Origin: Phoronis australis
Taxonomy: Eukaryota > Animalia > Phoronida
Assembly: GCA_002633005.1 (NCBI GenBank)
Contig: NMRA01000400.1
Coordinates: 62,001 to 126,000 of the forward strand
DNA: 64,000 nt
Direction: 5' to 3'
Part shown: piece after piece, positions 24,401-49,139 of the stretch
Layout of the letters: each line of letters opens with the position of its first letter
How positions within the stretch are numbered: position 1 is the first letter of the stretch
The notes under the pieces: generated by a model
Databases searched by the model: none
Told to the model about the DNA's origin: nothing
The model's input: the letters and a program-made list of their open reading frames with translations, nothing else
Position numbers and translations under genes: made by a program

Positions 24401-27400
24401 TGTTCGATGAAATTATTTTGTCAATTCTTTTAAGAAATTATTGCCAGGTAACTGCAGCTTTCAAGATGTGGGTTGCCTATTTCCTTAGTAATTTTGTACT
24501 ACTGAAGAAACTGGCAAGTAGTAAAATTTTAAGGTTAATTGTAGGTTCTCAAGCAAGCTATCTTCAATTGGTACACATTTTAGTGCAACTATTATAAAAA
24601 TAAGAAACTGTGTTGGAGCAAGTTCCAGTACATTACTTTCATTTTCAATTGTTATTTAAAAATATGTAATCTGTCTAAACTTTTTCATTGATGTCTCATT
24701 AAATTGCTATTGTTTTTTTTTAAATTTTTGTTCATTAATGTTAGACTGCAGTTAATAGTTGCTTTGATAAACTTGAAATTAGAAATTAAATTAATTTGAG
24801 TGTGTCTTCAATATCTCAAATGTTTGCCCTGCTGTTTCAGGTATGCACTAAAGCGCCATCTGCTGAAGTTTGAAGCGATCTACCCAGACACGGCGGTGCC
24901 ACTGGGATATATCAGAGGTGAGGCCATCTACGCCAGAGAGTGCGTCCATGGTCTACATTCTAGGGAGACATGGCTGAAGGAGGCAAGGACTGTTAGGGTG
25001 GGTAGGCTGGCATCTCGGCCATTTTTCTTATATGTTGCAATGTTCTAGTATTTTGAATGGGATAATTCCTCTGTAAGAAACATTCGACATGCAACTGTTT
25101 AGTCTTGTGAAAGAGCGAGTTATAGCATTCTATTTGACTTAGATGGAAAATTCTAGTTGTCAAGACGGGCGAAGTTGACGAAGATGAAATGCTAACAGCA
25201 CACAATATGGTGGACTGATGAAATTTCGTTTTGTAAGATTTTTCCACAAAAGTTAAGATTTTAGTCTCATTTGCACTATGTTAATGACATAAAGCAATGT
25301 TTGGTAAAGCTCCCATTGTGTGGAGTAAGGTAAACAACCTTTGAAAAGTTGAAAAGTGGCAATTTTTGTATTAAATTATTTTTGTACAAAAGTAGTGGAG
25401 AAGTACTGTTGTAGTTGACATTGTATATTGTTTTTAAGGTGGGTGAGAGCGCATACAAGATGGTGAAGCCTCGTATCAACCCTCGTAAGCCGCACCTTAA
25501 AACCGGTGAAGCGACGCTGGAAGTGTTTGGTCGGTGGCAGACTGAAGACTACATTCCACCTATTGCAGTCGATGTAAACATTTTAGCAACATTTATCGGA
25601 TTCATATTTCATTTAAGCCTACATGCCCTAACAAGTGCACAAGGGAGATAATTTTCATGTACATCCACTCTAAGGACTGTTTGGTATCCTGACTTGTGTC
25701 ATGTATGGCAGTGTTGTTTGCACCATAAGGTCTGTTTACCCTTAGTGATTTGTCTGGAGTGTGTTGGCGACTGTCTGCAACAGTTTGTTGCTGTGACGAG
25801 TAGTTGCTGGCATAGCACGTCCAGCATAGCAGAATCTGGATGAGCAAGCTGTACATAGCTTTTCAGGATTGAGCAATCAGACTCCAGGATTTACTGAATG
25901 AAACATGCGAGTGATTAGGCTGGTTCAACAATTTTTTGTGACCTGTAGTGTACTTAAACGTTGTCTGCACAGAAGGTAGTTTCGATATGCTACTGGAGCG
26001 GTAAAATATTACTGAATGATTTGATTTGATTTTTGTTTGTGTGCCTCAAACAATTAATTGAGTCTATCGGAATGCTTATCACATTGTTTAACCATTGTTG
26101 TGCTATGCCCCAAGTCTAAAATGGTATGATTTTTCACTGTTGCCATTGAAAATTCATGTCAAAAATCTTAGTCTCAGTGGTGTTTCATGGGGAAAAGCTC
26201 ACTACAGGTGCAAAGTTCAGCGTAGTTAGTGGGGACTTGAGGTGAAAGTATGCACTAGACTGGTAGTGTGTAGCTGTGTGGAATTTGTTATCGTTAAAGT
26301 TCACTACGTTGACTTTTTTAATTACTCTCATGATGAGTGAAAAGGGTTTGATATTTACTATGTCTTCAGGGCAAGGTGCCACGTAACGAGTACGGTAATG
26401 TGGAAATGTTCAAACCTTGTATGTTACCAGGAGGGACAGTTCACTTAAAGAGTAAGTACATTAAAATCTCGCCAATGCAGGTCACAATATGGCCGACTGG
26501 CGACATTTTATTTCTTGATTTTCTCGGAAATGATATACTCCGGAATCATGATATTTTGCCATGTCCAAGTTCCAGAACATGACTACCAACAAACAGACAA
26601 TATTTTGAAAAACTGTGGGTATTAAAACCCCTTGGGAAATGGTAAAAATACAATTCCGGCAATTATGTAGAGGACCATTAACAATTATTACCATTTCATG
26701 AGTTTTCACAACGCTTCTCACTCTCTGTGATTGATTAGGCCTCGTTTCGACAAGTGCATTGAGTATGCCTGTTGGTACGTCAGTCTCTGCCCCCCGACAT
26801 AAATTATGAATGATGATTAGAAGTTATTGTTTAAAATTCTGCAATTAACTGGTAAAATATCATGTCGCCTGTTGCTGTCAAAAATATCTCCATTTACACT
26901 TTACTGGTATGAAACTCGTTTTAACCACTGCAGCACTGCAGCTTCAGTGAGGCTGGTTTCGTAACTGAACACTAGATGGTACTACTAATTGCTACCTTGT
27001 GATTCTAGAAGTTTTGATAACTTTCAGTTACTGGCCTGAATAAAGTAGCACGGAAAATTGGCATCGACTGCGTTCCAGCCATGGTGGGATGGGACTTCCA
27101 TGGAGGCTATGCGCACGCTATGTGAGTGGGGGAATTTTAGGAAATCTGAGTTTTCATAAATGGGTCCTCCAAAATACTGGCTTTGAGAGCCGATTGTTTT
27201 TGGTACCATGTACCGTACAAGGGTTGTTCGTTCATCTAGTGAGATTGTGCAATTTTTTGCAAGTGGAAAATTCAGGATGACCTTATCAGTCGTATTTTGT
27301 AGTTGTTATTTTAATAGTACAGTACTTGCCAGACATCTTCCAGGGGAGTTAATACTGTCTTCTTAAAAGTTCAGCTCTTTTAAGTTGGTTTATTTAGTGT

Positions 27401-30400: not shown

Positions 30401-31182
30401 CCATGATTGTTCCTTTGTTGCTATTTTCAAACATGAATGCTCCTTTGTTACTATTTTCAAACATCATTGCTCCTTTGTTGCTATTTTCAACCATGATTGT
30501 TCCTTTGTTACTATTTTCAAACATGACTGTTCCTATGATTTAAGAAAAGGGAGAAGCGAGTGATAGAGCACTGGACAACATTAACACGTGGACTGTTGAT
30601 TAGAGAGAGGCTGGAGAAAAAGTATAACCTGCAGGTATGTACAACAGTGTGCTTAACGATCTGTTTCATGGAAAGAGAATGAGGCTCAACTCAGAAGTTT
30701 CATATTGTGCTGATACACTTGTGCTGCAATTATGGTATGAAATTTTTGCTCAAGAATTGTTAGACCATCACATTTAATATACATCTTTTAACTTCGGTCC
30801 AGCCATGAGAATATATTTTGTGAGACTTGAGATTTTTTTTCAAAAATGTTGTAAAGCCTTGTTGTACCCATGAGGTTTGTTAAGTTGTTGAGAATTAGTC
30901 CGATTTGGTAATCATCAGGTTTCACAATAAAACCTCAACTTATTGCTGCCGTCGGATTTGCTAAGTAGTAATATCCTTTGCCCTCATCCAGTAGTTTATG
31001 TTACTTTGTATTGATTTGCTTGTTGGTGTTGTTAGAAAAAGCCAGAATCATTGACCACAGACAAGACTGAAAAGGCTACTGACGTTGAGGCATCTTGGCC
31101 AAGAAACCGAGAGACAAAGAAACCAGCAGGCAAGAAGAGTAAGAAAGAGCAAGCGCATCTGTTTCCATTTGAAAAGATGTGA
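15463..31182 (+). CDS. XPC: DNA damage recognition factor XPC (Rad4 family), ~967 aa, 18 coding exons
   Basis: Exons: 15463-16186, 16759-16843, 17733-17823, 18328-18543, 18721-18786, 18949-19400, 19878-19990, 20648-20698, 20975-21067, 22286-22441, 23847-23904, 24841-24997, 25439-25573, 26370-26451, 27028-27121, 27912-28005, 28811-28900, 31036-31182; phases are consistent (2904 nt). Motifs: [92 protein letters not shown]-terminal HLFPFEKM*. The start codon is tentative because an acceptor lies just upstream (15455). Confidence 0.95.
16975..17266. mobile_element. MITE-like element with ~70-bp terminal inverted repeats (XPC intron)
   Basis: ATTGCTATCTATGGACGGCCTGGTTTATTTGAGAACCTAGCTTTCG... is mirrored by ...CGAAAGCTAGGTTCTCAAATATAACCAGGCCGCTGATAGATAGCAAT. 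Confidence 0.8.
17923..18046 (+). pseudogene. Decayed partial duplicate of XPC coding exon 4 (pseudo-exon)
   Basis: 17938-18046 aligns codon by codon to 18373-18483 ([36 protein letters not shown] vs [37 protein letters not shown]) with a 2-nt deletion. Confidence 0.85.
21661..21855 (+). mobile_element. tRNA-derived SINE-like repeat (family A)
   Basis: A-box-like GGCCCAGTGG, B-box GGTTCGAGTC, and a body similar to 580-770. Confidence 0.6.
23351..23387. repeat. 11-bp tandem repeat (CACTAGTCTGG) x ~3.3
   Basis: Read directly from the sequence. Confidence 0.9.
28597..28805. repeat. 30-bp minisatellite, ~7 units
   Basis: Unit CTATTTTCAAMCATSAWTGYTCCTTTGTTR; it ends just before the acceptor of XPC exon 28811. 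Confidence 0.95.
29326..29400 (-). mobile_element. tRNA-like SINE head inside a copy-specific insertion (~29237-29677)
   Basis: TGGTGTAGTGGTTAAGG (A box) and GGGTTCGACTCC (B box). The acceptor and T stems do not pair properly, so this is not a functional tRNA. A perfect 22-bp palindrome lies next to it at 29292-29313. Confidence 0.55.
29679..30970 (+). repeat. Near-identical duplicate of 27918-29236 (XPC exons 16-17), starting right after a single N; probable haplotig overlap
   Basis: N at 29678. The copy starts 6 nt inside exon 16 and so lacks its acceptor. It differs by scattered SNPs, a 3-nt indel and one minisatellite unit (1319 vs 1292 bp). Duplicate exons are at 29679-29766 and 30545-30634. 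Confidence 0.9.
30361..30540. repeat. 30-bp minisatellite, 6 units (second copy)
   Basis: Same unit as 28597-28805, with a different unit number and order. Confidence 0.95.
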
Positions 31183-33987
31183 GATTGATGGCTTATTTCA
31201 GTTCACTTAGTCATGTGCTTTACCTCAGCTGATAGTTATGTACAAAAGTTCAACTTTTAGATTTAAAAATAATCATTTCACTTTGCTTGATTGTTTACCT
31301 ATGAAGACTTTCATTTGTTTTTTCAAATAATTTAGGAGGTGCGAAATTAGGCGAGTGTGCGAAATCAGTAGGGAATTACTGTATGTATTGAAATTCTGTT
31401 GTAGGTTATCAAACTAGTCAAGGACATATGGTGCAGTGTTTCTGTTTCGAATTGTTGAATATCATTGAAAGATGTTTTGTTTGCACTCTATTATTCACCC
31501 GTAGAGGAATGGGACTCAAAACTTCTATTAAAAGGAATCTCTCTGACATTAATGCCAACAGTAAAAGACAATTTAAAGTGGAATTAAGCATGTGATTACT
31601 GTGAAAAAAAGAGCTCTGAAAGACCTAATTATTTTTTTCTCTGACCAAGCTTTAAAAAATACAAACTTGTCAGTTCCTTGCAAATTCAGAAATCTTACAA
31701 ATTGAGACCCATTGCATAGGGCTTACCGTTAAGTGGCCTAAAATCAAGATGATTTTTTTTAGACTAGAATTACTGGTTTAATGCCACATTGGGTTGAAGT
31801 TGGTATTATATTACTGTATTTTCCAGACATTGTCAAGTATTTCTTTGTAATTGTGTCCATCCTTTCTTTCCAGTAAGTTTTAGATACATGTTCTGAAGTA
31901 ATGGCTGTAAATACTGCATCTTTTTGTCTCAAGTTTGTGGAACTTCAAAGCAAACTAATCTGCTAATGATTAACACTGTTCTTCAAGATTGAGTCATTAA
32001 AGATAGCTTGAAAATAGAAATGTAGAGTATTAGGTACGGTAAAATTTCACCAATTTCGTTGTTATGAATGCCTGCAATTTCTCAGCATCATTGTCTGCTG
32101 GTAGCTATAACATATCTAGTAGTACTTTTAAGATATTAAAATATCTTTTATAAAAGACAAAACAAAATTTTATCTTGTCATACACATTGTGTCCTTTACC
32201 GTAGTTCATAAACTCGTCAGTTATTACTAAATGTAGTTTCACAGTGTTACAAGTCATTGTAGTATCATCCACAATGGTCTCTGAACCAGCATATCTAGCT
32301 CTTCGTATTACCACAAAAGTCGTTTATTCTTTAAAACTACAAATTACTTTTTACCACCATGTTTGTGCTCATTAAGGCTCATTTGCCTTATAGTAAATAC
32401 AAGTAATTCACATTGCAACAAAATTCGGTCAAGTGTTTTGCACACAGAAGTTTCACTTTAAGGCATATGTCTTCAATGAGTTTTTTTGGTATCTGTTAAT
32501 TTGTAATATTGTAGGAAAACTTGAAAGAGTATGGGTAAAAAGCGACACAAGAAACACCCAGCGTGAGACTAGTACATTATAAATAGAAGAGACAATGCCT
32601 TGCACCTATAAGTGAAGATTGGGCGCATGTCCCTGTGTACAAAACATTGAGTAAAAAGTTTTTAAAAAATGCATAGGTGTGCAGGCATACGAGCACATAA
32701 TATATGTTATGCAAATCAAGATAATTAGTTGGTCTCTCAGGTAATTAAAAGATATTTTCTAAATAAACGTATTTTTGTATGACTTGTCATATATGTTGTG
32801 TACTTTTATACCTACCTTAAAAATTGTGATCTCATTGCCATAAAACACCAAAAATTAAACAATCTGGGGATTTCTGCGGAGACCCTCAAATTTAGGCCAT
32901 TATGTGGAAAATTTTCCTAAAAATTCATCACATTTTGGGCTACAAAGCAATTGTTTTATTACACCCTTTGAATTTTGAATAGCCCAACTTGGAATGGTTG
33001 TTAATGAGTGCTATTTTTGAAACTATGTCCAGGCTTATAACTGGGGTACATGTACTACACGTAGAAAGGTAATTATATGCAAATTTTTAATTAACACCTT
33101 GGGGCTTCCCATCAGAAATTCTTGGTAGTATATAAAACCAAAGCTATCAACTTGATATTTCATGTTGCTTAGGCAATCTAATAAATGATTCCTATATTTC
33201 TGGGCTTGGGAGGGATGGACAATTCTCGTCACTTAAACTGATGCGCCGTGACCGGCCAAGTTGACGAGTGTGGCATCGAGCAACATAGAACTGATCTTAC
33301 CAAGCGAAGAAATCACCACCTTGGATGTGGGAATAATTTGGGACCAATTAAAAGTGGGTGAGTGGGTGGGTTTACTTAACCCCCCCGTATTTCCAGTGGT
33401 GACAGACAAGTTTTTGACACATACTTTGACAGAAGCCAAGAATAGTACAGATGTGATTTCACATCTAATCTAATTTATCGCACCTAGACAAAAGTCTGGA
33501 TTGGGGCTAGCCCTGATCTAACCGCACATCAAAACCCATATCCAGACGCAGTTTAATCATGTTCGATAGGAACAGATTTTTGATCAGCACCGCAGTTTTT
33601 AATTTTTCTTGAATGACAAGATACAAATAAGCTAAAATCAGCAGCTATCAAGTATGTCCTAGCTTGATACCAATAGGAATAAAAAGAGAAATAGAATGCG
33701 TTGCTGATTTGCTATGACAGTATAAGCAAACCATGAGTGCACTAATTCTTTTTAAAAAACGATATTAATTAACTTCTCATTCTGTTCCCATTTTCTCATG
33801 ACATCAACAACTAATGACACAATTTTGTCAAATGTTTTTAAAAAAACTCATTTATTAGGAAACACTTGACTTGAGAATCATGGGTAGCTGTTGTATTTTA
33901 ATAATAGTGCAAGTCTAGATCAGTTCAAAATATCAATTGTTGAGGTCACATTTCTGCATTAAGACGAGTCTTTAGCATGTCTATATG

Positions 33988-36116
33988 TCAGGTTTTGTCT
34001 TGTCCTGTATCAGAAACATTGGTGACATTCTCACATTCTTTCGTATTTGTCTTTTTCTTTTCCTCGTTTGCATTTTTATCCAAAACCAATTCAGTCACAT
34101 TGATCTTGCTAGATTCATCAAGGCTAGAGTTATCTCCTCCACTGTTCTTTGTCTCGAAGTTATCTCCTCCAAGCTCACTCCCATTAGAGATCTCTCTCCT
34201 GTTCTCTTGCAAATTTGCTTGGTTCAGCTTCTGCGCTTCTTTTCGCATCTTTTCTTTTTCTTCCTCCACCAACTGGTCGAAATTCTGTAAGAAATGTGTA
34301 GCTGAATGGAGTGTTCATTACAAAACAAGATTCCGGGAAGTAGGGGGTTGAGGCTTGGTGTTGGCATAATGTAACAGACCCTTTAGAAATAAACTGGACA
34401 GACTTCAACAGAATTCTGTCAGAGTGCTAAAATTGGACAAACTTCTTGCTAGGAATTATTTGGTAATTTAGACAAACATCTGTCAAAATAAAATGACATT
34501 TTTCATGAACTTTAGTGCGACCTTTATGTGCCTAGCCGCTAAATGTTTAATTTGTAAAGGGACTCGCAAAGGAAGTTGTCGCGATTTCGATTAAGGTCAC
34601 AGAGCCACACCTGTTGAGATTTTGTCGAGAATTTTTAGGAAATGAAATGTAGATCTTTACATAGGTGCATCAAAACTTTGACGACTTTCAGAAGCCAAAT
34701 TCAATCATTGTGAAGGTCGTCTTACCTCATGACTGAGAATACAGAGGGAATTAAAAAAAAGTTAGTAAGGTGTATAAACCATTTTGTACAATTTAGGCAC
34801 TCTAATAGTTTTTATTACTAGTTATTTTCCTGTTTATAAAATGAGCCATCATGATGGAGCAACGGAATTTTTGCATTTCTTTTGACTCGTACTTTATTCC
34901 AGTCGAGTGCACTACGGCCATGTGACATTATTTTCCGTATTCACCTCCCGCACTACTTCAACAGTGACCTCTAACATGAAAAGTTCAAAAGGTAGGTCAA
35001 TGCTGACTAGATGTCATTAGCCGGTTTGATTATAAAACTTTCGAAAATATTTTAAAGTGATACAATAACAGCAGTATAAATAACACTCAACATGCAATCA
35101 GGTACCAAATGATACAACTGGTACAAAACACAATTAGGTGACATTTCTGTCTCAGTTTTCAATTGCTAAATATAATATAGTCTGCAACTCAGGCGCCGAT
35201 TCCTCGGTAACTGCAAAATCAAATTGTGTAGTTATTTAACTGTTTTCAGGAAATGTTACAAGTTCAATGCACAATTACCGTGTTTTCATCATCTCTTTTC
35301 AAGTGTCGGCAATAAATCGTTACATTTCTGTTTCTATTACTGGAGAAAACCTAATACGCAAGTACATACATATGGGATGTGATCCGCCACGTGAACAGTT
35401 TGGGTGAAGTATTTAAAAAATCTGCAGGAAAAATGAAAGAAAGTATAAGGAATTCGAAGCGCATGGGATAAACACATTATTTCGTGACCTCGATTGATAT
35501 GCGGAGTAACGTCTCGTGGCATGTTACTTCATCTACGCCACTCTCGGTACATTTTGTGTATGTATAAACATTCCTTCCATCACAAAAAACGTTTGGTTTA
35601 CAGTTGTCACTGCTTATCACTTCTTATCTATGTTAGGAACAAGTTGAGACCAGTTTTATAGCAATACGTGGTCTCAATTAAAAGTTCCAATCTTGGACAG
35701 AACGCTGGGATTCATAACCGCTATAAAGACAAAGTGGTGAGAATGTCAACAAACACTCAACCAGCAAGTTCACTACTCATCGACAAAGTTTTTGAGAACC
35801 TGCAGTGTTTTTCACTGACGAAGCAGGATACTTGTATCTTGTTTCACAAAAAATTTGCCATCTTTCCAAGGATCCGCCACGACAGGTAGTTTTTCTTTGA
35901 TTACCACCACAATTTTCACCATAACTTCAGAACAGAGCAAGAAAACTTAGGTTATAAGAATTCGTCAACTTGCTGAAAACTACAACCGCAACATTACGTA
36001 AGAAGTACCTTCATTGGCCTGTAGATGGAGTGCACAGTCTGCGAGCCAAGCATCATGGAGAACAGTGCCGCTGAGGAAGCTGCAATATAACGTGGCCACG
36101 AGACTCCAGCAGGCAT
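33988..36116 (-). CDS. UQCC6: Complex III assembly factor UQCC6 / Brawnin (C12orf73, Drosophila sloth2), 2 coding exons, ~134 aa
   Basis: Exon 36116-36009 encodes MPAGVSWPRYIAASSAALFSMMLGSQTVHSIYRPMK, with the family signature MPAGVS.....G...VH..Y(R/K)P. A phase-0 GT donor joins the TTTCTTACAG acceptor of exon 34284-33988 (NFDQLVEEEKEK...QDKT*). AATAAA on the minus strand at 33856-33851. The first exon is secure; the second-exon join is inferred. Confidence 0.88.
34931..35555. repeat. Dispersed repeat (family B) in the UQCC6 intron
   Basis: Colinear similarity over ~600 bp to 52768-53490 (TTTTCCGTATTCACCTCCCG..ACTTCAACAGTGACCTCT..; CCACTCTCGGTAC). Confidence 0.85.
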
Positions 36117-36208
36117 TGTAAATATCTGTACTTTCGGCAGAACCTCCTATTAGGAAGACACCAAATTTCCACAATACCAGCTTGGAGTTAGTTCAAGCAA
36201 TCTGTAAG

Positions 36209-37868
36209 TTAGCTAACCGACGCCACCTTTTGGGCATCCAGCTCCAGTTGCAACTGCCTGGCTGCTTCTTGTCGTACTTGCTTCTTGAGGAAAACTGAGT
36301 CTGGAAAAATCGAGGGTTTCTTAGTGGCAAAGACAAGGAACATAACAGGCTGAACTAACTATAATGGTGATTTTATTTCACAGCAAGTTTAAAAAGCCTG
36401 AGGGGCCTTTAGTCCTCATTTTTCATCTCACTAGTCGATATTTGAATTATAAAGTTGGCAAGTAGCCCAGTGCATACTGTAAGTTAAACACTGTTAACAA
36501 AAGGGCCTATAATGCAAAGATTCCAAATCCAGAATAAAACGTTCTTCAAGGAAGTTTGTAATCGTTTGCAACATCACAGTAGAACAGTTCAATGGTCAAT
36601 GTTTATTTAATGATAGTGACCTTTGAACTATTAATAGTCCTCTCATACCTCTATCTATACGCCAGTGAATGGTCAATTGTTGATATAATGGCGGCTATGA
36701 ATATGCATGTCACTAGATGGCGATTGAGTAGTTGCTGGACAGCATTCAGCATTTTTAAATGGGGATAAGATGCAGTGTGATTAATCCTAGCAATTTATGC
36801 AAATTCTTTGCCACCATTCTACCCGCAAATTACCGGTGTTGTGCAGCAATGCATTCAAAGAATTCACACAAAAATGTCTAACATCACAAAACTGATCAAA
36901 GTAACAAAATGTCCACGAAGAAAAAAATTTCAATTTGTCCCAGCCAACTCAGTCAGTCTTCCATGAACGGGGATTGGATACTGCAGCGAGCGACAGTCCT
37001 AAAACAATAGCTAGATTTGCATGTCAAATATTTGGAATTTAGAAGTCATTCTGACTGACAGGCAAAGAAACCAGTGCAAAATAAATCTTTCAGTCCCAAT
37101 GTCTACAGACAACAATAATTGGCCAAAACTTTTCTCATAGATAATTAGAATGCAGGATTGTCCCTGAGAACAACAGCAAGCAAGGTGTAAATTACGCATA
37201 GCGTTTTTGCATCCAAATTTCCTTTCTGTTAAATTCAGAAAAACAGCAGTTATGATTACATATTAATTTCACTTGCTGGGCATGTCACTATCAATTTCAC
37301 GGCAAAATAATAAAACTAAGTAACACTAAGTAACACCATTAAAATCATTTCTCCTGCAACTGTCAAACATGGTACACACCACGTTTGACTCCATTGTAGG
37401 GAGAACACTGGTATGTTACAAATCTTAGTGTGAAAATTCTTCAATTTGGGACAAAACAGTTATTGCTAAAATTGTCGTATTTCTATTTTTCAGAGGCTTA
37501 CCATATTGTTACTAATGCTCAAAATTTTACAATACTTTGTTTGTAATGGCTACACCATACAAACTACTCTAAGAGCAAACAGTAAATTTTCCCGAAAGCT
37601 TTTTTATTTTTAATGAGAAATTTGAATATAAAAATGAAATTACGCCTGTCCACCATAAAGCGCCCCAAACTGAAGAATTTTTATCATGACATAAATACGT
37701 ACAAAAATTGACTTCTCCAACTTTCCAGTTGATCATAGAAAACTCCAGTGCTGCTCCCAAAGTGAAAAACAGAGGCATGAAACGATAAATGCCAAATCTT
37801 TTCTTCCCCGGCCACTTATCCACTAGTGTCTTAAATCGCAGACTCAACAAACCTTTATCAAACTTCAT
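36209..37868 (-). CDS. UQCC5: Complex III assembly factor UQCC5 / SMIM4 (Drosophila sloth1), 2 coding exons, 85 aa
   Basis: Exon 37868-37703 encodes MKFDKG...WPGKKRFGIYRFMPLFFTLGAALEFSMINWKVGEVNF, with the family signature PGK.RFG.YRF.P.FF.LG..E..MI...VG...F. A phase-1 intron leads to exon 36300-36209 (YSVFLKKQVRQEAARQLQLELDAQKVASVS*). An acceptor at 37890 implies a 5' non-coding exon. Confidence 0.93.
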
Positions 37869-38248
37869 AATATTGAGACGTCCTACAACCTGAAAATATA
37901 AAACAAAATATTTTAAAATGACCTACAACGAACAAATTTTCCCAGCAGGATCACAGACTTACATAAAATTTTCCCCATCCCTATCTTGAACGAGCAACCT
38001 ACAGCAATGGTGTAGAAATTCAAAGTAGCAACTTAACATGACAAAACCACCAAGACTGAATGCTCAAGTAAGGAGCACTGACCACTAATGAAACAGCTTT
38101 AGATTAAAATGACAAGAGCATGTGGGGCCACAAAATCAAAATTTCTCATTATAAAAATGTCCACAATTCAACAATGCAATCCATACAATTCTCTCCCCAT
38201 GCTCCACTACTCCGTTTTCGACAGAGTATTTCAATTTGATGTTTTATT

Positions 38249-38316
38249 CATGGGTGGCGCACCGTAGGAGGCTGATGGGGCTATAGCCCCATTTTTTCAA
38301 TGCTGCGCCACCCATG
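38249..38316. repeat. Miniature hairpin element, 13-bp inverted ends
   Basis: CATGGGTGGCGCA ... TGCGCCACCCATG, with an internal palindrome TGGGGCTATAGCCCCA. Confidence 0.6.
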
Positions 38317-39482
38317 TTGTACTGACATTAAGATCTATGTTCAATAACATGTATTGCAGTGTTTCAAACCGATTTGCATTTTATGCTCACCAAAGATTGT
38401 TTATTTAGTATCTGTCATATATACGAGGTTTGAAATTGTCACTCATGAGAGTAATGATATTTATAATTGCCAAACTTGTACAATATACAATTTCTTGTCT
38501 ATTTGATGGAAAAGGTATTCTGATTCGGATGATTTTGTCTTTTATGGTGTACTATGTCTGTCACGTCTTGCTTTTCTAACTACCATCAACACTTGGACTC
38601 ATTCATGTGTTCTACAAGTTCAAGGATCACCTGGACAAACTTTCACCAGTCAAACGAGCTGTCTTGTCGCTAGCAAAACTTACCGGTAAGTATTTTGATC
38701 TATTTTCTCATACAATAGTTGAAACCCTTTCAAAGCTCAAGAAAATATGCTTAATCATTGAGTATACTTTAACAGAAACCACCATGATACCATGATACAA
38801 ATTACATGCGATTCAAATGCAAAAGTACAAAATATTTAATCAGCCAGCTGAGGGGCAACAACACTCTCAATTGGTACCTGTTTTAATTTCATCCTGTATA
38901 TTTTAAACAGGCGGAGGCTAAATCCGCTAACCAAATAAGAGGTTTTCACCTTGTCAAAATACAATTTACAATCAAAATTGACACTTAAAACGTGCTCAAG
39001 ATGATTTTAATGAAGAATGTCAACCCTACTTTTTTGTCACCGTTAACTTTTTCACCGCAGGCAAAATAACCACAAAGTATTTCAATTGATGTCACAAGAG
39101 TTAGGGCCATAACAAGGCATAAAAAAGACAAGACTGAGTGAAGTGTTCAACCTGATGGCCGACACTTGCAAACCAATAACACATCGTAAAGATATCCGGA
39201 GGAATTTGCATCTCTTCGAGTTGTTCATAAACGAGCGTAATTTCAAGTTACTTTTTCAAAATGGCACCTGGCGATGGACGCTTGACTGAAACTCGACACA
39301 TTTTCATGGATGTGTTCAAATTATGTTGACTAAATCATAGTATGTGTAATTTATAACTTATTTCACAAAAATGGAATCGTTTCATTCGATGTTATTCCCT
39401 GCATTTTGAAATGAGAAGCTTTATATGGCCATGGGGATATACCATTGGTACACGGTACACAGCTACACAGCCTACCCTAATT

Positions 39483-39665
39483 CACAGGCGTCCTCAGCTT
39501 CTGATCGCCGACAATATACTTTATAATACTAATAGTGTATTGTGGATGATCAGAAGCTGAGAACGCCTGTGGCACAGGCGTCCTCAGCTTCTAATCGTCC
39601 CCAATACACTACAGTAGTATTATATGTAGTGTATTGGGGACGATCAGAAGCTGAGGACGCCTGTG
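39483..39665. repeat. Two tandem ~90-bp palindromic MITE-like units
   Basis: Units at 39483-39571 and 39573-39665, each CACAGGCGTCCTCAGCTTCT(G/A)ATCG...GATCAGAAGCTGAG(A/G)ACGCCTGTG. A half copy lies at ~40445-40485. Confidence 0.9.
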
Positions 39666-39869
39666 GCCTGTGGCGCCCCAATTACGAATTAGCCTTACAA
39701 AATATGATGTCAAACATGGACCAATATTACTTAACATGTGCAGCAATGTCTCAGTGTAAAACAATGTTTTCACATGCACTGTCATTCAAAACTGTCTTCT
39801 ATAGGACATCGAGTGGCAGCACGTTCTAACTACACTAACGTAAAGTAAAATATCTAACCACTGAAGAAA

Positions 39870-39990
39870 CTCCGGTTTCGTCAGCTGGGAGCCGCCATAT
39901 TGTTTTCATATTGAGGCTGTTGTGGCATTCAAATAACTGTTCTGATTGGCCGGTCACATATTTCTCGGAGACTCAGAGCCAATCAAATTA
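39870..39990. promoter_or_regulatory. Candidate bidirectional promoter between UQCC5/UQCC6 (-) and TDG (+)
   Basis: YY1-type GCCGCCATAT (~39891-39900) and two oppositely oriented CCAAT boxes (ATTGG 39945-49, CCAAT 39979-83) lie between divergent genes. Motif evidence only; no TSS data. Confidence 0.45.
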
Positions 39991-40887
39991 CATTATACAG
40001 GGAATTAATGTTTATCTGCACCGGAGAAATTTAAAGGGACAAAGGTGTTTTTAAGGTACTTCAAAGTAATAGGAATATTTTTCGTAATTCAGTTGATCGA
40101 TCGAGAATTTACTTCTTAAATATGTTAACGAGAATCTATCTGACTTAAATCGCTCCTGTTTGCTTGACAGTCTGCCTTGCTTAAGTCAAATTGCTGACTG
40201 CATTTTTCCCTTCGCCCAATGTGGCAATGACTAGCAAAGCTACATTGACATTCCCCCATACTGGCTGCAGAGGTCAGGTGAACGCAATGAACTGAGCTGC
40301 CGTGCGCTATTGGTTTGCTGCACAGGCGTCTGAATTTTTCATTGATAATCTGGTAATTCTTTATAAATATGTAAGGTATGTCACATTTGTCCTAAATTCG
40401 TGAGAGTCCCAACTCCAGCCATATGTTAATTGTCTAGTTGTGATCACAGACGTCCTCAACATCTGATCGTCCCCAATACACTATATAGAACTACAAGGTA
40501 TGACACTCCGGACTAGAAATTCCACGGGTGCTTCACTTCAGCCGTCCATAGTAAACATAAAACTCAATAAATTTACACAAAACTGAGGTTCAACAAACAA
40601 TGAAGAATTGTTCTTTCTCCCAATACCATTAACGGTGCCCTGCTCCACCGAGTTTGCAAGAAATTCGCGGTCAAAGCACAAAAATCTTCCCAAAAAGCCC
40701 ATCTGGAGCAACTCCTTGGTCCCACATGCAGGGTACGGAATTATCTGTTGAGTTACGGATGTACGGCAATTGCCGATTCACGGCATCGATAACTCTGCAA
40801 CTGTACCCATGCTTGTCGGTCTTTTCAGTTTCCCGGGTGCATATTGGTGTGACAACTTTGAGGATTGTATTGGAAGACTTCACAGCA

Positions 40888-43800
40888 ATGGAAGCCAATG
40901 GTCTCAACTTGTAAGTACTCGCACTATATATATAACAGTAAGAAACATTCTACACTGTTCATCTCTCTCGCAGAGCATGTGTCTTTGGAGTCACCCAATA
41001 TCTGATTCTGGGATGCAAGACGGGCGGAATTGATAGCTTTTTGCGATTTCTTTCAGTCACAGACTTTGGAGAAGTTGGATATTTTTGTGTGTGTATAATT
41101 GACAACATGATAGTTGGAAATACCCCACTGCAATATATCCACTCAAGAATTCTAATGCTGGCCAACAACTACACTGTCACCACCTGGTATCTAGACATAT
41201 TTCATAGTGTTCTCCTCAGAAAGTTCAACATGTTTGGATGTCTGTGTCTATACTAAGGGGCATTTTTAGTTTTATGTTTTTAGTTTTGGAATGAATTATT
41301 GTTCTGGTGCCAAAAGTGTAAAATTTCCTAATTTGGTTAAGGAAAGAAATAATTGCATAGGTTTTCAAACTTTACTCAAGCAAGCCAAATGTGTCATGTT
41401 GAAATTAAGACTCGTTACTGCGATAAGTCAAAACAGTTGTCTACAACATTGTTTGATAATGTCACTGCTGTATTATCAGTTAGGAGAATAGCTGTCACAA
41501 AATCTCTGGTCACACAGGAGAAGGGCACTTTGTCTTGAAAGACTTTCAAAATTTTATTCACCATTTTAGTAACCTAAATTTTCTAATTTGTATATGTATG
41601 TATTAGTAAAACAACAATTGTGGATCAACTGAAATTTTCGGATATAATCACATCCTTTGTCAGGAGAAACAAAAATAAAGTAAAAATCTAACTCAGTACA
41701 TGAAAACTAGGCATTTTAAAGCGAAATCCTTATAGCGTAATGTTTTTTTTTATACAAACAAAGGTGTTCCTGATTTTCATGTTCTTTTTATCAATTCATT
41801 TTCTTAATTTATTTCAGCCCAGTGAAACAAGAGCAAGCAGCTTGCAATATCGGTTTTCCTCAGCCTCAGGTGCAAAACGATGTCGTGCCATCTTTTACCG
41901 TCAACCCTCCTTGGACCCAAAATGCAGCATATCAAGATGGTGGAGCTCTGATGCATGACCCCCTGGGTGGTGGTGCCCCTTTCCACCAGGTGTCCATGGG
42001 CAACAGTGGTGGGAAAAAACCCAGGAAGCGACCTGTCAAGGAAGAAATGAAGACAGAGTTCGAACCTGGGTATGTTGGTGATGGTGGAAAATGTATATCA
42101 TGTTTAATAGCTGAAGCTAGTGCTCATGAGAGCATTTTGAGAACCAGTTTGATGTCCATTGCTCAGTGAAGATGACTGGTTCTGGAAATGCAGAATCCCT
42201 ATAATTCACTCTTTCCCTCATCAGTAATTCAGGTAATGAAACTTAAAAGGATACAGACCCTGCTTTCATATATTTAATAGAATGGTGAACAATGACTTTA
42301 ATGTCCAATCATCTTGAACATAATGCTCTGTAACCCTGCTTAACCCTCAAAAGTTTGGGTCAAATGTGAAAGGTTGTTGAACAGGCAAGCGTGACCTACA
42401 CTTGAGGTGAATTACCGTGCAGAAAGACCACCCATCAAGAACCATAATATTCATTCTGTGACGCAGTCATTAAGTGTGTTAGTTGAATACTGTTTTTATT
42501 ACTAAACTGAGACACCAACTATGCATTAGCAGGGGAAAGAACAAGGATTGGTTGAAATCACCAAAACATGGTGTTGTATCCCTTAAGTAACTTTAGTAAT
42601 AATTTTCGTGTGTAGACAGTCTCTAAAATCTGGGAGACCGAAATTCAAGCAGAAGTAGATTTTTTAATCAATTCTGAAAATTGGGACGTAGGTGATTTTG
42701 GCTGTCATCAAAGTTTTCAATTATCAGACATTGTATTTTGTATCAACAGAGTCTGAAAATAGACTTAGCAGGTGATAAATTTATTTAAAATGGCAACGTT
42801 TTCATGCATCCACATACCACTCGGAGGTGGTGGCGTGTTAGAACTATTTACATTGTCACTTTCTGCCATGTAAGTAGACCAAGAGATTTTAATAATAGTT
42901 CTCATAGTTTGTAACATCAAGATGAATGATCGTTTGTTGTTGATTGTAACTCATGCATTTGGGACGAACAATATTGCTAGCTTAAAAATTTGGTACAATC
43001 CTCGACCTTAACAAACTAAGTGATATTTCACTGTAAAATAGTTCCAAATTTTTACTGCACAGTCAATAACTAGTATTTAAAATAGTATGACCAGTACATT
43101 CAAATGCATATTGTCAACTCAAAGTTTTTTATGGAACTACGTTACAGTTTATCTTTTGTGTGCCTTGTCACAACAAGGTAATTATAAGAATGATTTAAAA
43201 GGTAATAGAGACACTAAGCAGGAACTGATTAAGCATTTCTTTTATACTAGAACCTGATTCAATTCTGGCTAAACCTAGACAAAATCTTGACAGATGTTGC
43301 TTCATGCATTTTGTTGAAATCAATGCAAGTTACCTTGCACTTCACAAATGAAAATTATTGGCTCATACGCAGTTGCATTTCAGTAAACTCTGACACAACT
43401 TTGGCCAAAAAATGCTGCCGAGAAGTTCATTCAAGTTTGCCAATTAAAGATGAACAGAGTTGTGCTAAAGACTGAAGAACCCAAGAATGTTCTCTTGCAT
43501 TACAGTGTGTCGTATCCAAATGGTGTGTTGTCAGGGACCAACATGGCCATCAAGCAAGAGAAGATCACAGATCACGTTAAGGTGAAAAAGAAGCGAGACC
43601 GCTTCAAGGGGATGTCAGAGGAAGAAGTCCTGAAGAGGGTGCTGCCTGATCACTTGACCCATGACCTCGATATTATCATAGTCAGTAAATGTTCTTATTT
43701 GTATTGGCGGCGTATATAACCTCTAAGTGTTTGCGTCATAGAATTTTTTTAAGTCTGTTATTATGGACATCTTACAATAGCCTGCTCTGGCGATTTGTAA

Positions 43801-46800
43801 GAATCTTGTCGGTTACTTTGCATCCTACCACTGTGCAAAGTGTCAATGAGCAAAATGTAGATTTTAAAGGTAGATTTTATCATTTGAAGTGCCAGTATTT
43901 AGGTTCAGGAGAACCAATAGTTCAGTGCATAGCAGGGCATAGTATGGTGATATTCTAATTAAAATTGTCTTTGTAGGAATAACTGTTGAGATTCCTGGAA
44001 CAAAAGAATCAATTTGCCTTGAAGTCTTATGGTGGCAAGTGCTCAGAATTATTCCCAATGTTTGGTTACTGCAGCTTCATAATATTCCAATGCAATAAAA
44101 CTCTCAGGATTTTTGCTGAGAAATTTGACAGAACAGTAGATGTCACTCCATTTGTGTTGCATCAGCAGTGACCCTGGTGTTGGTTTATTGAACTAGTTGG
44201 TGACCCTCAATGTTCAATCTGTGTCCTCATAGTCCCGAGGTACAAACATTCCACCCATTAACACCCATACTGTGTATTTGAGCTTGTCACTTTAATCTTC
44301 CGTAACATTTAGCTGGAGGCTTCAAAAAATTTACATTACACTTTTTTAATCAAGTTTTTTAATCAAACTGTGGCATCTCTCCACAGGTTGGAATCAACCC
44401 TGGCTTGACTGCTGCGTTTGTCGGCCATCACTATGCTGGCCCTGGCAACCATTTCTGTAAGTGGCTTATGTAGAGAACTACAAGGTTTTTATAATCTTTT
44501 GCTAACATCAACTTCCTGAATGTAAATGGATGTAAACCTTTTAAACTGAAGTATGGTGGTTCACTATCTGCATTCGTTAGATGATCTTATTTTGTTTCGT
44601 GCTATATTTAATAATAAGTTTCTTTTTCAAAATCCATCTTATCTGTATGTGCTTGTGTGGTGTGGGACATTATGAAAGTCAGGTGTGTTTGTTTGATATG
44701 TGCAATATTAATGATTATACATGTGACTATGTCTGACAAGAAATCCTACTATCATTGTAGTTGAATTTCTTGCCGCAAAAAGTCACTCAGCTTTTAAATA
44801 AAAATAAAAGTGAAGATGTTAAACATGTATGTGTAAATACAGTTGTGTCTTTTTTCAGGGAAGTGTCTCTTCCTGTCTGGTCTCATCCCAGAACAGATGA
44901 ATGCTTATCAAGACTATAAACTGCTAGAACATGGTATTGGATTCACCAACATCGTGGAGCGGACTACTCGAGGTAGTGCTGACCTCACTAGGTAAGAGTT
45001 AACAATAAACTCATTTTTTCTGACTGGCAGATATCACCGGGTCATCCGCTGTCCTTGTGCACATTGTAATTGGCCAAAAACTCATATTTGGTTCTGGTCT
45101 GCTTCCTCATTCATTTTGAAACCTGTGCCTCAGCGCTTAAAATATAAAAATAAGCACCCACCTGTATTGTTTTGGAAGTTCTCAATCGTTTTTACTCACA
45201 AGTCACATATTAAGCATGTACTTTCTGGTTTTTAAATGAATCAACTCGTCAACTTGGCCACAGTCACTCGCTTATTTGTCTTAATCAATTGAATATAACA
45301 TATTTTCAATGAATAGATTGTATTAATTGATTGAAGACATGTCATAATCACTGCAGCCTTTCGGCATCAATAGATCAGAAACAACTAAACGTATTTTTGA
45401 CCTTATCTGAAATCATCGCTCCACGTCATAAGGTCACAAAACTATTTAGTTTTAGAATCTGTGATTATAGTGACTAATCTAATCACCGTTTAAGTCATGT
45501 TAGTTTGATTAATTCCAGTAAGTTTCAGCCTGTGGTAATACCACCATATCTAAAAGAGAAACTCAAAGTAACTACGTCACCTTCTTAGGAAGTCCAGACA
45601 GTTTGTAGCATTTTGTTGAATGTGTTATGTTTTCCCAGGAAAGAGATTAAGGAGGGAGGGGAGATCCTGAAGAAGAAAATTCAAAAGTTCAAACCCAAAA
45701 TTGCAGTTTTCAATGGCAAAGGTAAGATTAGATGGTGGGGCATACTAAGATGCGATTTGAGTTCTTGTCATAACCACACTTGACCTTGGCTAAACAACTG
45801 AAGTCACATTGTTATAAGCACCTTTCAATCATAAAGGGATGCAGTATATGTCTTAAAATTCTTCCAACTCTAACAACTGTTTCCAGAATCAAGATTTTCT
45901 TTGATATGTCCCTTCGTTTGCGAACAGAATTAAGAATTGACCTCCATGGCTTCCAATAAAGTCAAGGTCAAACTTAAATGTACAGGGAGTTGTGGGGAGG
46001 TTGTCTGTCTGCTAGTCATACCAAGAAGATTTTTCTTTGATATGTCCCTTCGTTTGCGAACAGAATAGTCCTTTTGCGAGTTTATAACAATAACGCGAGA
46101 TTACGTGAGACTTAACTGTGACGTCACGGGAAGTGGGGCAAAAGCTTGGCGTTTGGCTCATTTGCCCAATACGTTAGCAGAGTGTATTCTGTTATTTTCT
46201 TCCACTTTTTGGCCGTTTAGTTCGAAAAATGACAAACAAGCATAGCTGCTTTGGCAGATGAAATTCAGATTCGCACTACAATACGTTCTATCGCGTTTTG
46301 TACTAATTTGGTTTCGTGTATTTTAAACGGGCGATAGGCGAAATCCGTTCACTGATTAAGTTTTCACCACGTCAAAAATACATTCTACATCTAAAATTTT
46401 CACCTAAAAAGGCGCTTACTTTCTCCAGTGGTACTCTCTGCTTCTAAACAGATCTTCGATGAAGCATAGCTACGGTAATTTAGGTGACTTTGGCGAAGAA
46501 TTCCAACTCCACATTGTCGTTACTGTTAACTTAAACCGCGCGCGCGATAACCACAAAGTAGTTCAACTGGTCAGGTGAGTATGAGGCAAAGGCTAGCGCG
46601 ATACTGAGTGAACCGCGAGACCTGGCGCGTGACACTTGCAAAATAACATGAGAACATATCAAGTGAATTTGTAAGATTTGTGTTCCTTGGACTTATTGTT
46701 CGTGATTTCACGTAACTTCCTCAAAATGGCGCCCTGTGAGAGAAACTTGAGCGAAACGCGAGGTTTTCATGGATAGATTCAAGTTATTTGTAGACTAAAT

Positions 46801-49139
46801 TGTATCCAGAGTCAGGGTATGTGTTAATTAATTATAACTCCATGTGCGCATATGCATATTTCATTTGATTTTATTTGCTGCATTTTGAAGTGAGTAACTT
46901 TTTATGGGGAGAAACTATCGCCCCTGTGTGCCTGCATTCAGGCCTAGACCGGGTTTCAGCCCGTTCACAGCTTCGCACAACATAACAAGTTCACATTTTC
47001 TTCGTCCATTCACAGTTATTCCACGATCCATCTACCATCTTTTAAGTTGTGTTAACGTTTTAAGCGTAAAATTCACCATAAGAACTCCAGTAAAATTTAG
47101 CATGTGTAGCAAAGACTCGGGGCCAAACAAGAGCAATATGGCGGGTTTTGCCCCTTTTCCGGTGACGTCACATCGACTAACGAGAAACTCGCAAGTGAGC
47201 TATTAAGAATTGACCTCCATGGCTTCCAATAAAGTCAAGGTCAAACTTAAATGTACAGGGAGTTGTGGGGAGGTTGTCTGTCTCCTAGTCATACCAAGAA
47301 GTGGCAGCAAACACTGGGTACCTGTCTAAAGTAAGGTAAACTCAACGTATGAAGTGTCAAGAAAACTTCAAAACAGCTGATAGGAGAATGAACACCTCTG
47401 CTAGGGTGTAATGACAAGAATATTTAATGGTTGGATTTTGACTGCAATGAGCATTATATTTGAAAATTTTGACTTTTATCATTGTCCGACCTATTTGTTG
47501 TCATTATGTAAGCACGACAATCAAAATTTCAGTCTGGGGGATCATAATTTGAGCACAGCGGGCAAAACTTATGCTTGGAAGGTCAAAATTTGAGTTCGAT
47601 AGCCTGTTACGATAGGGCACGCTTGTGGGAACTCAATGTAAATGTGATGACACGCAAGTAAGTTTGTGTTTCATACACTGTACTTGTCTGTATGCCTAAA
47701 GACAGATTTTGTGGGCAGTGCACCAGGCCCTGAATCCCCTCTTGGAGCATCCTAGATCTTCAAGCAGTGTACTTTCTATCTTTAAGTTACTTCTTTCCGT
47801 TGCATTTTCAATTGTTATCGTCTGCTGTATGAAAGTTAAGTTTGTCTGGCTTATCTATATGGTTCCAGGTATTTATGAAGTGTTCTGTGGACACAAGAAG
47901 TTCAGCTTTGGAAAACAGCCAGACCCTTTTCCAGATACAGACACAGTGAGTGTTGATGTTTGACCTATTTGCAAAACCTGTTATAGAATCTTAATTTGTT
48001 TTTGACAATTATTCTACTGTTAGGATCAGTTATTTTATTAAAGTTCGTTAATCGTAGCACAGAGAAAAAGTGTGATCTGAAAGATATTGGGCACGAATCC
48101 CTGAAGTTTTGAGATTGCATTCGTTAAACGGGTGTAATGGGAAAACTTCACTCCCTTTTGGTTTGCTCTGTAGGTGATCTATGTCATGCCCTCATCCAGC
48201 GCCAGGTGCACCCAACTTCCAAGAGCCATAGACAAAGTTCCCTTCTACAATGCACTGAGGAAACTACGCGATCACTTACGTGGGCGTCTGACTCAGCTCG
48301 ATGATTCAGAAATTGTGTTTCCTGACGTCTTCCTCAAGACTGCTGTTAAGGTCAAGCCAGAGGTCAAAGAGGGACCTGCAGACGTGTCTGGTGCCATTAC
48401 TAGTGAGCAAGAATCTCAACCAGTGAAGAAAAAAAGAGGTCGGAAACCTGGGTCAAAGGTTAAAACAGAGGCCACTGGTGGCGATTACAGCGAAAATGGC
48501 AGTTGTGGACGGCATAGGTTCACTCAGGGTCATGACCCATCTGAAATGTTTGGTTCTTTAAACCAAGGTGGGGCATGGCTGCAGCCAGTTCGCGATGTGG
48601 GGGACATGAATCCAAATTCAGCTCAGAATGTCGGCATTCCTTCTAGTCAACATTTAGAATTGTTTCAACCTCAATTTGACATTGCCAATTATTCTCAGGG
48701 TTATGGAGGAGATTTTACCTCCACTCACAACCAACAGGTGTCCTCAAGTGGCAGCATTCAGAATGAAAACGCACAAAACCTGCATTTGAACTACTCTTCT
48801 GCCTCTGCTATGACTCAGCAATATTGGCATGACAGTGTACAGAATGGATTTTACCCCCAGCATGCCTGTGGCCAGTCACAGACAGGTCAACCATGGCAAC
48901 TACCCTTAAGCCAGTCAGAGTCCACATCATTTAGTCAATCGCAGATGGCCTCGAGTTCTCAGCATGCAACAAGTTCTGAGATGAGTCAAAGTCGGCAAGG
49001 GTTTGCCCAATACCTGTCTCAGTTCAAGCATGAGAGTGGTGTTGGGTCTTCGCAATCGTTTGACTTAAGCCAGTCCAGTAGTGGCTATCAATCTGATATA
49101 GGGCAAAATTGTGGGGGCCAACACAATCAATTAACATGA
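40888..49139 (+). CDS. TDG: G/T mismatch-specific thymine DNA glycosylase (TDG/MUG family), ~592 aa, 8 coding exons
   Basis: Exons: 40888-40910, 41818-42069, 43506-43680, 44387-44456, 44859-44991, 45639-45721, 47869-47945, 48174-49139; phases are consistent (1779 nt). Catalytic motifs: [55 protein letters not shown]. The first exon (MEANGLN) is less certain. Confidence 0.95.
45891..46066. repeat. 135-bp tandem duplication; the second copy is split by the adjacent insertion and resumes at 47202-47301
   Basis: AAGATTTTCTTTGATATGTCCCTTCGTTTGCGAACAGAAT occurs at 45891 and 46026; TAAGAATTGACCTCC...CATACCAAGAAG occurs at 45931 and 47204. Confidence 0.9.
46067..47201. mobile_element. ~1.13-kb non-autonomous TIR element with AT target-site duplication (ISL2EU/Harbinger-like, tentative)
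   Basis: Left end AGTCCTTTTGCGAGTTT; reverse complement of the right end AGCTCACTTGCGAGTTT. Subterminal inverted GTGACGTCAC..GGAA..GGGGCAAAA at both ends. AT is duplicated relative to the empty site at 45925-45935. Confidence 0.8.

What the first reader, a model, noticed from the sequence alone, without database searches (positions are those of the whole stretch)
36009..41000. The UQCC6-containing unit is head-to-head with TDG, as I recall for human C12orf73-TDG
Seen: the UQCC5/UQCC6 unit (-) and TDG (+) diverge, with first codons ~3 kb apart and YY1/CCAAT motifs between them. Known (from memory, to verify): human UQCC6/C12orf73 is divergently adjacent to TDG on 12q23, while SMIM4 is on 3p21. 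Inference: the ancestral bilaterian locus may have been TDG back-to-back with a [SMIM4-Brawnin] bicistron. The human locus would then have kept the promoter and the second ORF and lost the first ORF. This would give a direction to the bicistron split and mark a very old bidirectional pair.
Basis: partly seen in the sequence, partly recalled or inferred. Interest (0 to 1): 0.72.

Follow-up and report, generated by a model that had tools for sequence, protein, structure and literature searches.

The report
Ancient TDG and UQCC5-UQCC6 promoter trio
In this invertebrate, one messenger RNA carrying two small mitochondrial genes (UQCC5, UQCC6) starts about 130 bases from the DNA-repair gene TDG on the other strand; the same neighbourhood recurs in molluscs and partly in vertebrates, where whole-genome duplication likely split the two-gene message by keeping one gene on each copy.

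Summary
Observation confirmed and sharpened. RNA reads show a four-exon minus-strand transcript holding UQCC5 then UQCC6, and a plus-strand TDG with an extra 5' exon. Read 5' ends lie 126 bp apart, not 3 kb, around two inverted CCAAT boxes and a YY1-type motif. The adjacency is old: UQCC5 and TDG carry consecutive locus tags in a bivalve and a limpet (2 of 2 molluscs testable), TDG is head-to-head with the pair in contigs of two unnamed spiralians, and papers list TDG beside C12orf73 in human, cattle and chicken. It is absent in 6 of 6 pancrustaceans testable. The bicistron and its split in jawed vertebrates are already published (PMC9681215). New here: human SMIM4 lies among STAB1, NT5DC2 and GLT8D1, while UQCC6 and TDG lie among STAB2, NT5DC3 and GLT8D2, so the split is most likely reciprocal loss after whole-genome duplication. 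Lamprey, amphioxus and echinoderms could not be tested. A neat, unreported case of known processes; interest 0.5.

The parts
39859..39899 (-). Exon 1 of the UQCC5-UQCC6 transcript (non-coding; upper end = furthest read end; holds a 5-codon upstream ORF from ATG 39898)
   Evidence: joint 39859/37889 in 20 reads of X1-X3, longest side 41-44 nt
37703..37889 (-). Exon 2: UQCC5/SMIM4 start (ATG 37868) and N-terminal 55 codons
   Evidence: PF15114 E 3e-25; joints
36009..36300 (-). Exon 3: end of UQCC5 (stop ends 36209), 92-nt spacer without ATG, start of UQCC6 (ATG 36116)
   Evidence: PF14990 E 2.7e-15; joints of 44 and 65 reads and an X4 contig across 36009-36245
33850..34284 (-). Exon 4: rest of UQCC6 (134 aa in all, stop ends 33988) and 3' UTR (lower end approximate)
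   Evidence: joint 34284/36009 and X4 contig 33850-34133
39892..40024 (.). Shared (bidirectional) promoter: YY1-type motif 39892-39901, CCAAT boxes 39943-39951 (-) and 39977-39985 (+)
   Evidence: no read depth in 39923-40003; factor binding is inferred from consensus only
40025..40055 (+). TDG non-coding exon 1 (lower end = furthest read end)
   Evidence: joint 40055/40830, GT-AG, 4 reads with 4 starts in run X2 only
40830..40910 (+). TDG exon 2 with ATG 40888
   Evidence: joint 40910/41818 in 14 reads of X1-X3
41818..49139 (+). TDG coding exons 41818-42069, 43506-43680, 44387-44456, 44859-44991, 45639-45721, 47869-47945, 48174-49139 (stop)
   Evidence: open 592-codon frame and 68% identity to P0056; four of these six internal joints displayed
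15436..27300 (+). XPC, tail-to-tail neighbour of the bicistron (ends approximate)
   Evidence: Rad4 BHD_1 and BHD_3 domains; human XPC chains E 2e-24

Best explanation
This is one short two-way promoter region that gives TDG on one strand and a two-gene UQCC5-UQCC6 messenger on the other; the layout likely dates to the protostome-deuterostome ancestor, and vertebrate genome duplication likely split it by reciprocal loss. How it works: NF-Y (two inverted CCAAT boxes, each about 45 and 80 bp from either 5' end) and YY1 would drive both directions as a housekeeping promoter (inferred from motifs). UQCC5 is read first and UQCC6 by leaky scanning or re-initiation (leaky scanning shown in fly only). 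The shared promoter would lock the neighbours together without any functional link between base excision repair and complex III. After duplication, one copy (human 12q23: STAB2, NT5DC3, UQCC6, TDG, GLT8D2) kept TDG and the second ORF; the other (3p21: STAB1, NT5DC2, SMIM4, GLT8D1) kept the first ORF and lost UQCC6 and TDG. Pancrustaceans kept the bicistron and lost the link to TDG.
For: Shown: gene structures, strands and 126-bp gap. Consecutive locus tags on equally long contigs in Solemya velum (ScPMuIL_007861/007862) and Patella caerulea (SNE40_015424/015423), 2 of 2 molluscs where both genes were named. TDG divergent from UQCC5, start codons 1.2-1.4 kb apart, in L038 and L041/L042 (two organisms), which fall among spiralians in a TDG tree. 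Cattle order STAB2, NT5DC3, HSP90B1, C5H12orf73, TDG, GLT8D2 (PMC10818672 table); chicken list GLT8D2, TDG, C12orf73, HSP90B1 (PMC12937304); human 'neighboring TDG and C12orf73' (PMC11714271); human chr3:52.54-52.90 Mb holds STAB1, NT5DC2, SMIM4, GLT8D1 (PMC5545733). Blocks on human 3 and 12 belong to one 2R paralogon (PMC3826523). Loss of ancestral bidirectional promoters in stem vertebrates is the common fate (54.5% of 372; PMC6292497). Chance of independent adjacency plus divergence about 1e-3 to 2.5e-5 depending on the pool mixed.
Against: No lamprey, amphioxus, tunicate, echinoderm or cnidarian locus could be read, so the deuterostome side rests on jawed vertebrates alone. Strands in the two molluscs and in vertebrates are not given by any search (human divergence is recalled). 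A human head-to-head list lacks TDG, and I recall the main human UQCC6 start lying several kb from TDG, so the promoter itself may not have survived. PMC3826523 does not name STAB, NT5DC or GLT8D; their ohnolog status was not tested by a tree here. 6 of 6 pancrustacean pairs lie on different contigs and 4 of 7 contigs with at least 2.4 kb upstream (all termite-like) lack TDG. TDG exon 1 rests on 4 junction reads in one run.
Confidence: 0.75

Rival explanations
1. The trio is ancestral, but SMIM4 left the TDG locus by a single-gene move (transposition or retroposition) in the jawed-vertebrate stem, with no role for genome duplication.
For: Lamprey is bicistronic although it shares at least the first duplication (shared duplication is recalled).
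Against: It needs SMIM4 to land by luck among paralogues of three genes that flank UQCC6-TDG (STAB, NT5DC, GLT8D). A vertebrate-type unnamed UQCC5 prediction reads into an intron at the same place as invertebrates (P0347), which argues weakly against retroposition.
Confidence: 0.12
2. The spiralian trio and the vertebrate UQCC6-TDG pair arose independently by gene mixing on one ancestral chromosome.
For: Partners do change: TSR2 is divergent in L024, a methyltransferase is upstream in L023; pancrustaceans lack the link; no intermediate deuterostome was seen.
Against: Chance about 1 in 1000 even for mixing among only 500 genes; the link has lasted across bivalve, gastropod and other spiralian lineages.
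Confidence: 0.07
3. The linkage is kept by selection for co-expression of TDG with complex III assembly factors (repair of oxidised or deaminated bases matched to respiratory output), not just by promoter sharing.
For: Long conservation; XPC, which I recall stimulates TDG, is the other neighbour here.
Against: Lost in pancrustaceans with the bicistron intact; XPC exons were not found beside the bicistron in any of 48 loci (mostly short contigs); a quarter of amphioxus neighbours share housekeeping promoters regardless of function.
Confidence: 0.06

Closest known systems
Drosophila sloth1-sloth2 bicistronic gene (SMIM4/UQCC5 and C12orf73/UQCC6 orthologues; Bosch et al. 2022, PMC9681215)
   Same: Same two ORFs, same order, one transcript, no ATG in the spacer; linked in choanoflagellate, sea squirt and lamprey and unlinked in jawed vertebrates according to the paper.
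   Different: Spacer 92 nt versus 5 nt; UQCC6 has a long acidic tail (134 aa); the paper has 0 occurrences of 'TDG' or 'synteny' in its main text and offers no mechanism for the unlinking.
Ancestral bidirectional promoters disentangled by vertebrate genome duplication (Marletaz et al. 2018, PMC6292497)
   Same: Housekeeping genes head-to-head in an invertebrate, YY1-type ubiquitous promoter, partners redistributed among duplicated copies.
   Different: One partner is a bicistronic mRNA, so the duplication split ORFs of one transcript; evidence reaches to protostomes; TDG, SMIM4 and C12orf73 were not found by name in the four supplementary files held, one of them cut.
Dismantling of ancient gene pairs after 2R by differential exon loss (Touceda-Suarez et al. 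2020, PMC7530604; abstract and opening text only)
   Same: Duplicate copies of an ancient microsyntenic unit lose different coding exons.
   Different: That work concerns developmental regulators with bystander genes and enhancers; here all three genes are housekeeping and the tie is a core promoter plus a shared transcript.
Human/cattle/chicken C12orf73-TDG neighbourhood at 12q23.3
   Same: UQCC6 directly beside TDG.
   Different: No UQCC5 listed between them; whether one promoter still serves both is not shown.

Membership tests
sloth1-sloth2 (UQCC5-UQCC6) bicistronic gene | First ORF is UPF0640/SMIM4, second is DUF4516/Brawnin, same strand and order | tested here: met
sloth1-sloth2 (UQCC5-UQCC6) bicistronic gene | Both ORFs on one spliced transcript | tested here: met
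   UQCC5 stop and UQCC6 start share exon 3, both flanking joints read, a contig bridges the spacer; short reads only, so a minor shorter transcript is not excluded
sloth1-sloth2 (UQCC5-UQCC6) bicistronic gene | Both ORFs translated, second by leaky scanning | not testable with these tools
   no ribosome or protein data; spacer has no ATG but UQCC5 holds three internal ATGs
TDG (G/T mismatch thymine DNA glycosylase) | Intact UDG-superfamily catalytic domain grouping with animal TDG | tested here: met
   68% over 264 aa to P0056; nests among animal TDGs, 80% to Lingula over 218 columns
Bidirectional (head-to-head) promoter pair | Divergent transcripts with 5' ends within 1 kb | tested here: met
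   stranded reads, 5' read ends 126 bp apart; exact start sites need CAGE
Bidirectional (head-to-head) promoter pair | Shared cis elements drive both directions | not testable with these tools
   motifs present; no reporter or binding data
Ancient conserved microsyntenic pair (protostome plus deuterostome) | Adjacent in several distant phyla | tested here: met
   two mollusc classes, two unnamed spiralians, this window, three jawed vertebrates; absent in 6 of 6 pancrustaceans
Ancient conserved microsyntenic pair (protostome plus deuterostome) | Present in intermediate deuterostomes (ambulacrarians, amphioxus, tunicate, lamprey) | not testable with these tools
   no such genome is held; accession search found only Bosch et al.
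2R reciprocal loss (ohnologous loci) | The separated genes lie in blocks flanked by paralogue pairs | tested here: met
   STAB1/2, NT5DC2/3, GLT8D1/2 from published gene lists; the 3p list is alphabetical, so order there is recalled
2R reciprocal loss (ohnologous loci) | Flanking paralogues date to 1R/2R by phylogeny | not tested
   PMC3826523 dates 23 of 34 other families of the chromosome 1/3/7/12/X paralogon to 2R but does not name these three
Human head-to-head pair UQCC6-TDG (starts within 1 kb) | Listed start sites within 1 kb on opposite strands | tested here: inconclusive
   TDG absent from the list in PMC4089025 supplement 2, but C12orf73 may not have been annotated then; other supplements gave no rows

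The most novel reading that the evidence does not exclude
The last common ancestor of protostomes and deuterostomes had one short promoter making three proteins (TDG one way, UQCC5 and UQCC6 the other), and vertebrate genome duplication converted the bicistronic mRNA into two single-gene loci by reciprocal ORF loss on paralogous chromosomes: a general route by which vertebrates shed polycistronic transcripts, with the region between human TDG and UQCC6 being the scar of the lost UQCC5 exons.
Probability: 0.65. Interest if true: 0.62.

Novelty: new variant of a known kind. Interest (0 to 1): 0.5.

Why it matters
It supplies a concrete, checkable mechanism for a published but unexplained event, the unlinking of UQCC5 and UQCC6 in jawed vertebrates, and extends the known idea that genome duplication untangled shared promoters to shared transcripts. 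It predicts that other invertebrate bicistrons split in vertebrates will map to paralogous blocks. It also gives a positional marker (look 5' of TDG) for finding these often unannotated microprotein genes in spiralian genomes, and raises the question of how the two complex III factors kept their balance once they no longer shared an mRNA.

Tried and rejected
Read pile-ups at 39480-39670, 40440-40780 and 41600-41700 are repeat-derived (both strands, loose ends, opposite-strand joints) and were not counted as transcription. A UQCC5-like hit in a bacterial contig (L049) is chance: 18 bits against a cut-off of 27, inside long bacterial ORFs. Viral contigs: none. ORFs of 52 aa or more right of TDG: 84 of 87 scanned, no Pfam match above cut-off, so no GLT8D or NT5DC neighbour was seen there. 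ESM Atlas gave nothing for the XPC N-terminal exon. The bacterial promoter scan is irrelevant here. Literature searches for the ancient link or the duplication mechanism found no such paper: sloth1+sloth2+bicistronic, C12orf73+TDG, the six STAB/NT5DC/GLT8D names, paralogon+STAB, brawnin/SMIM4/synteny/duplication/bidirectional, TDG/UQCC6/head-to-head, lamprey accession neighbours; the library lacks most subscription journals. Supplements of PMC7817982, PMC4094773 and PMC11676430 gave no rows for these names, which may reflect other identifiers. Of 10 UQCC5 representatives looked up, 3 were named and only Patella had a TDG tag to compare. No complex or structure prediction was run; it would not bear on the claim.
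Full report
What is in the window. The minus strand between about 33.85 and 39.9 kb carries a four-exon unit. Exon 2 (37889-37703) starts an 85-codon ORF matching UPF0640/SMIM4/UQCC5; exon 3 (36300-36009) ends it and, 92 nt later with no ATG between, starts a 134-codon ORF matching DUF4516/Brawnin/UQCC6. The plus strand carries TDG: a 592-codon frame from ATG 40888 across eight coding exons, all introns GT-AG, 68% identical over 264 residues to a full-length TDG. XPC lies tail-to-tail on the left.

RNA evidence. Three raw-read RNA runs with the same species label, of which 18-19% was read, and one contig set were laid on the region. Depth is stranded as the models require. The three introns of the minus unit are read 65, 44 and 20 times; a contig crosses the spacer, so the two ORFs share a transcript, although short reads cannot exclude a minor shorter form. 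Junction reads reach 39899 on the minus strand and 40025 on the plus strand (TDG exon 1: 4 reads, one run), 126 bp apart, and no run has depth in 39923-40003. In this gap lie two CCAAT boxes in opposite orientation, about 45 and 80 bp from each end, and at the minus 5' end a YY1-type motif. The inverted pair occurs once in the window (19 of 100 shuffles give one somewhere), so its value is positional. The motif names are recalled consensus, not binding data. This is a textbook short bidirectional promoter.

Which animal. Among 47 TDG rows the window is sister to the brachiopod Lingula (93/80, not starred; 80% identity) inside a spiralian group. The tree had no invertebrate deuterostome. The UQCC5 helix has the form shared by all named protostomes, unlike the lamprey and choanoflagellate sequences seen in the Bosch supplement (read by eye). 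I take the window to be a spiralian, likely a lophophorate; this is inference.

How old is the link. Locus tags give neighbours where both genes were returned by name. Solemya velum: UQCC5 ScPMuIL_007861 (KAL5013591.1), TDG ScPMuIL_007862 (KAL5013592.1), both on a 185-Mb contig. Patella caerulea: TDG SNE40_015423, UQCC5 SNE40_015424, both on a 78-Mb contig. That is 2 of 2 molluscs; tags give adjacency, not strand. A metagenome scan gave 48 UQCC5 loci; 40 of 48 have UQCC6 downstream on the same strand, most of the other 8 being cut short. Seven have at least 2.4 kb upstream. Three of these (L038, L041, L042; the last two 99.8% identical, so two organisms) have TDG on the opposite strand with start codons 1.2-1.4 kb apart and fall among spiralians (L038 fills only 30% of columns). 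The other four are termite-like and show no TDG within 3-7 kb. In pancrustaceans 6 of 6 same-species pairs are on contigs of different length (Hypothenemus, Anabrus, Hetaerina, Homarus, Ceutorhynchus, Daphnia pulex), and L024 has TSR2 as divergent partner. An earlier unchecked note of this scan reports COX7A2L in that position in another arthropod. For vertebrates I relied on passages: human 'neighboring TDG and C12orf73' at 12q23.3 (PMC11714271, abstract); cattle STAB2, NT5DC3, HSP90B1, C5H12orf73, TDG, GLT8D2 (PMC10818672, table); chicken GLT8D2, TDG, C12orf73, HSP90B1 (PMC12937304, table); human region list (PMC11061283, table). Independent origin of the same divergent neighbour has odds of about 1e-3 even if only 500 genes were mixed. 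Simplest reading: present in the protostome-deuterostome ancestor, lost in pancrustaceans. No non-gnathostome deuterostome or cnidarian could be read.

How the vertebrate split happened. Bosch et al. (PMC9681215; passages and part of supplementary file 1) already report the bicistron in choanoflagellate, fly, sea squirt and lamprey and its unlinking on the way to jawed vertebrates, so the direction is not new; they do not mention TDG or synteny. Human chr3:52.54-52.90 Mb contains STAB1, NT5DC2, SMIM4 and GLT8D1 (PMC5545733, table, alphabetical), the paralogues of STAB2, NT5DC3 and GLT8D2 that flank UQCC6-TDG. Blocks on human chromosomes 3 and 12 belong to one paralogon formed in the two vertebrate duplications (PMC3826523, passages and part 3 of section 3; it does not name these families). 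XPC, the left neighbour here, is on human chromosome 3 as well, and GMPPB, next to TDG in L042, is at 3p21 by my recall. So the most likely history is duplication of the whole unit and reciprocal loss: one copy kept UQCC6 and TDG, the other kept UQCC5. This matches the general finding that most ancestral bidirectional promoters were lost or disentangled in stem vertebrates (PMC6292497, passages) and the exon-loss route in PMC7530604 (abstract and opening text). The dating of the flanking paralogues was not tested here.

What is not supported. No call gave human strands or start sites. A published human head-to-head table (PMC4089025 supplement 2) has rows for LSM3-XPC, GNL3-PBRM1 and SPCS1-GLT8D1 but none for TDG; it is old and may predate C12orf73. 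From memory, the main human UQCC6 start is several kb from TDG and only a longer isoform begins near it. In mouse, Tdg and Glt8d2 are 4 Mb from Hsp90b1, Nt5dc3 and Stab2 (PMC9388341, table), so the block is not frozen. SMIM4 remnants in vertebrate DNA could not be sought. One passage of PMC11090417 added only a methylation coordinate. Supplements of bioRxiv preprints were closed and one file of PMC6292497 was cut, so a prior listing of this pair there cannot be excluded.

Mechanism, shown versus inferred. Shown: gene models, splicing, strands, close 5' ends, shared exon, adjacency in other spiralians, published vertebrate neighbourhoods. Inferred: NF-Y and YY1 use; translation of both ORFs (in 23 intronless loci the spacer is 1-72 nt and holds an ATG in only 2, as scanning would favour); ancestral age; duplication with reciprocal loss; that the tie is promoter sharing rather than functional coupling.

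Verdict. A real feature. The parts are known kinds: a published bicistron and an ordinary housekeeping bidirectional promoter. The combination, its spread across spiralians and vertebrates, and the duplication route for splitting a bicistron were not found in the searches named under Tried and rejected. New variant of a known kind; interest 0.5.

Noticed in passing
window 39881-39909 (-): Exon 1 has an ATG at 39898 inside the YY1-type motif (resembling the recalled TISU element) that opens a 5-codon upstream ORF; an ATG at 39909 would be in frame with UQCC5 and add 24 residues, but lies beyond the furthest read end (39899). Start-site choice could therefore change translation of the bicistron.
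   Followed up: partly
window 33988-34284 (-): UQCC6 is 134 aa here, with a long acidic, Asn-rich tail, against 61 aa in fly.
   Followed up: no
window 15436-27300 (+): XPC sits tail-to-tail with the bicistron, two repair genes flanking it; human XPC is on chromosome 3, head-to-head with LSM3. Not found beside the bicistron in the 48 loci.
   Followed up: partly
window 27918-29240 and 29679-30974: 1.3-kb direct duplication at 95% identity starting right after the window's only N, likely two haplotypes joined at an assembly gap.
   Followed up: partly
window 39483-39667, pieces at 40445-40501: Palindromic, MITE-like repeat in intron 1 of the bicistron, with fragments in TDG intron 1; attracts reads from elsewhere.
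   Followed up: partly
window 2013-10530 (-): Cytochrome P450 gene.
   Followed up: no
L024:514-1068 (-); L023:219-929 (+); L042:381-638 (+): Other neighbours of the bicistron or of TDG: TSR2 divergent from UQCC5, a small methyltransferase directly upstream on the same contig and strand, and GMPPB convergent with TDG.
   Followed up: partly
P0358: An unnamed 155-aa prediction holds both a UQCC5 and a UQCC6 segment in one chain; probably a gene-model fusion of the bicistron, possibly a real fusion.
   Followed up: no
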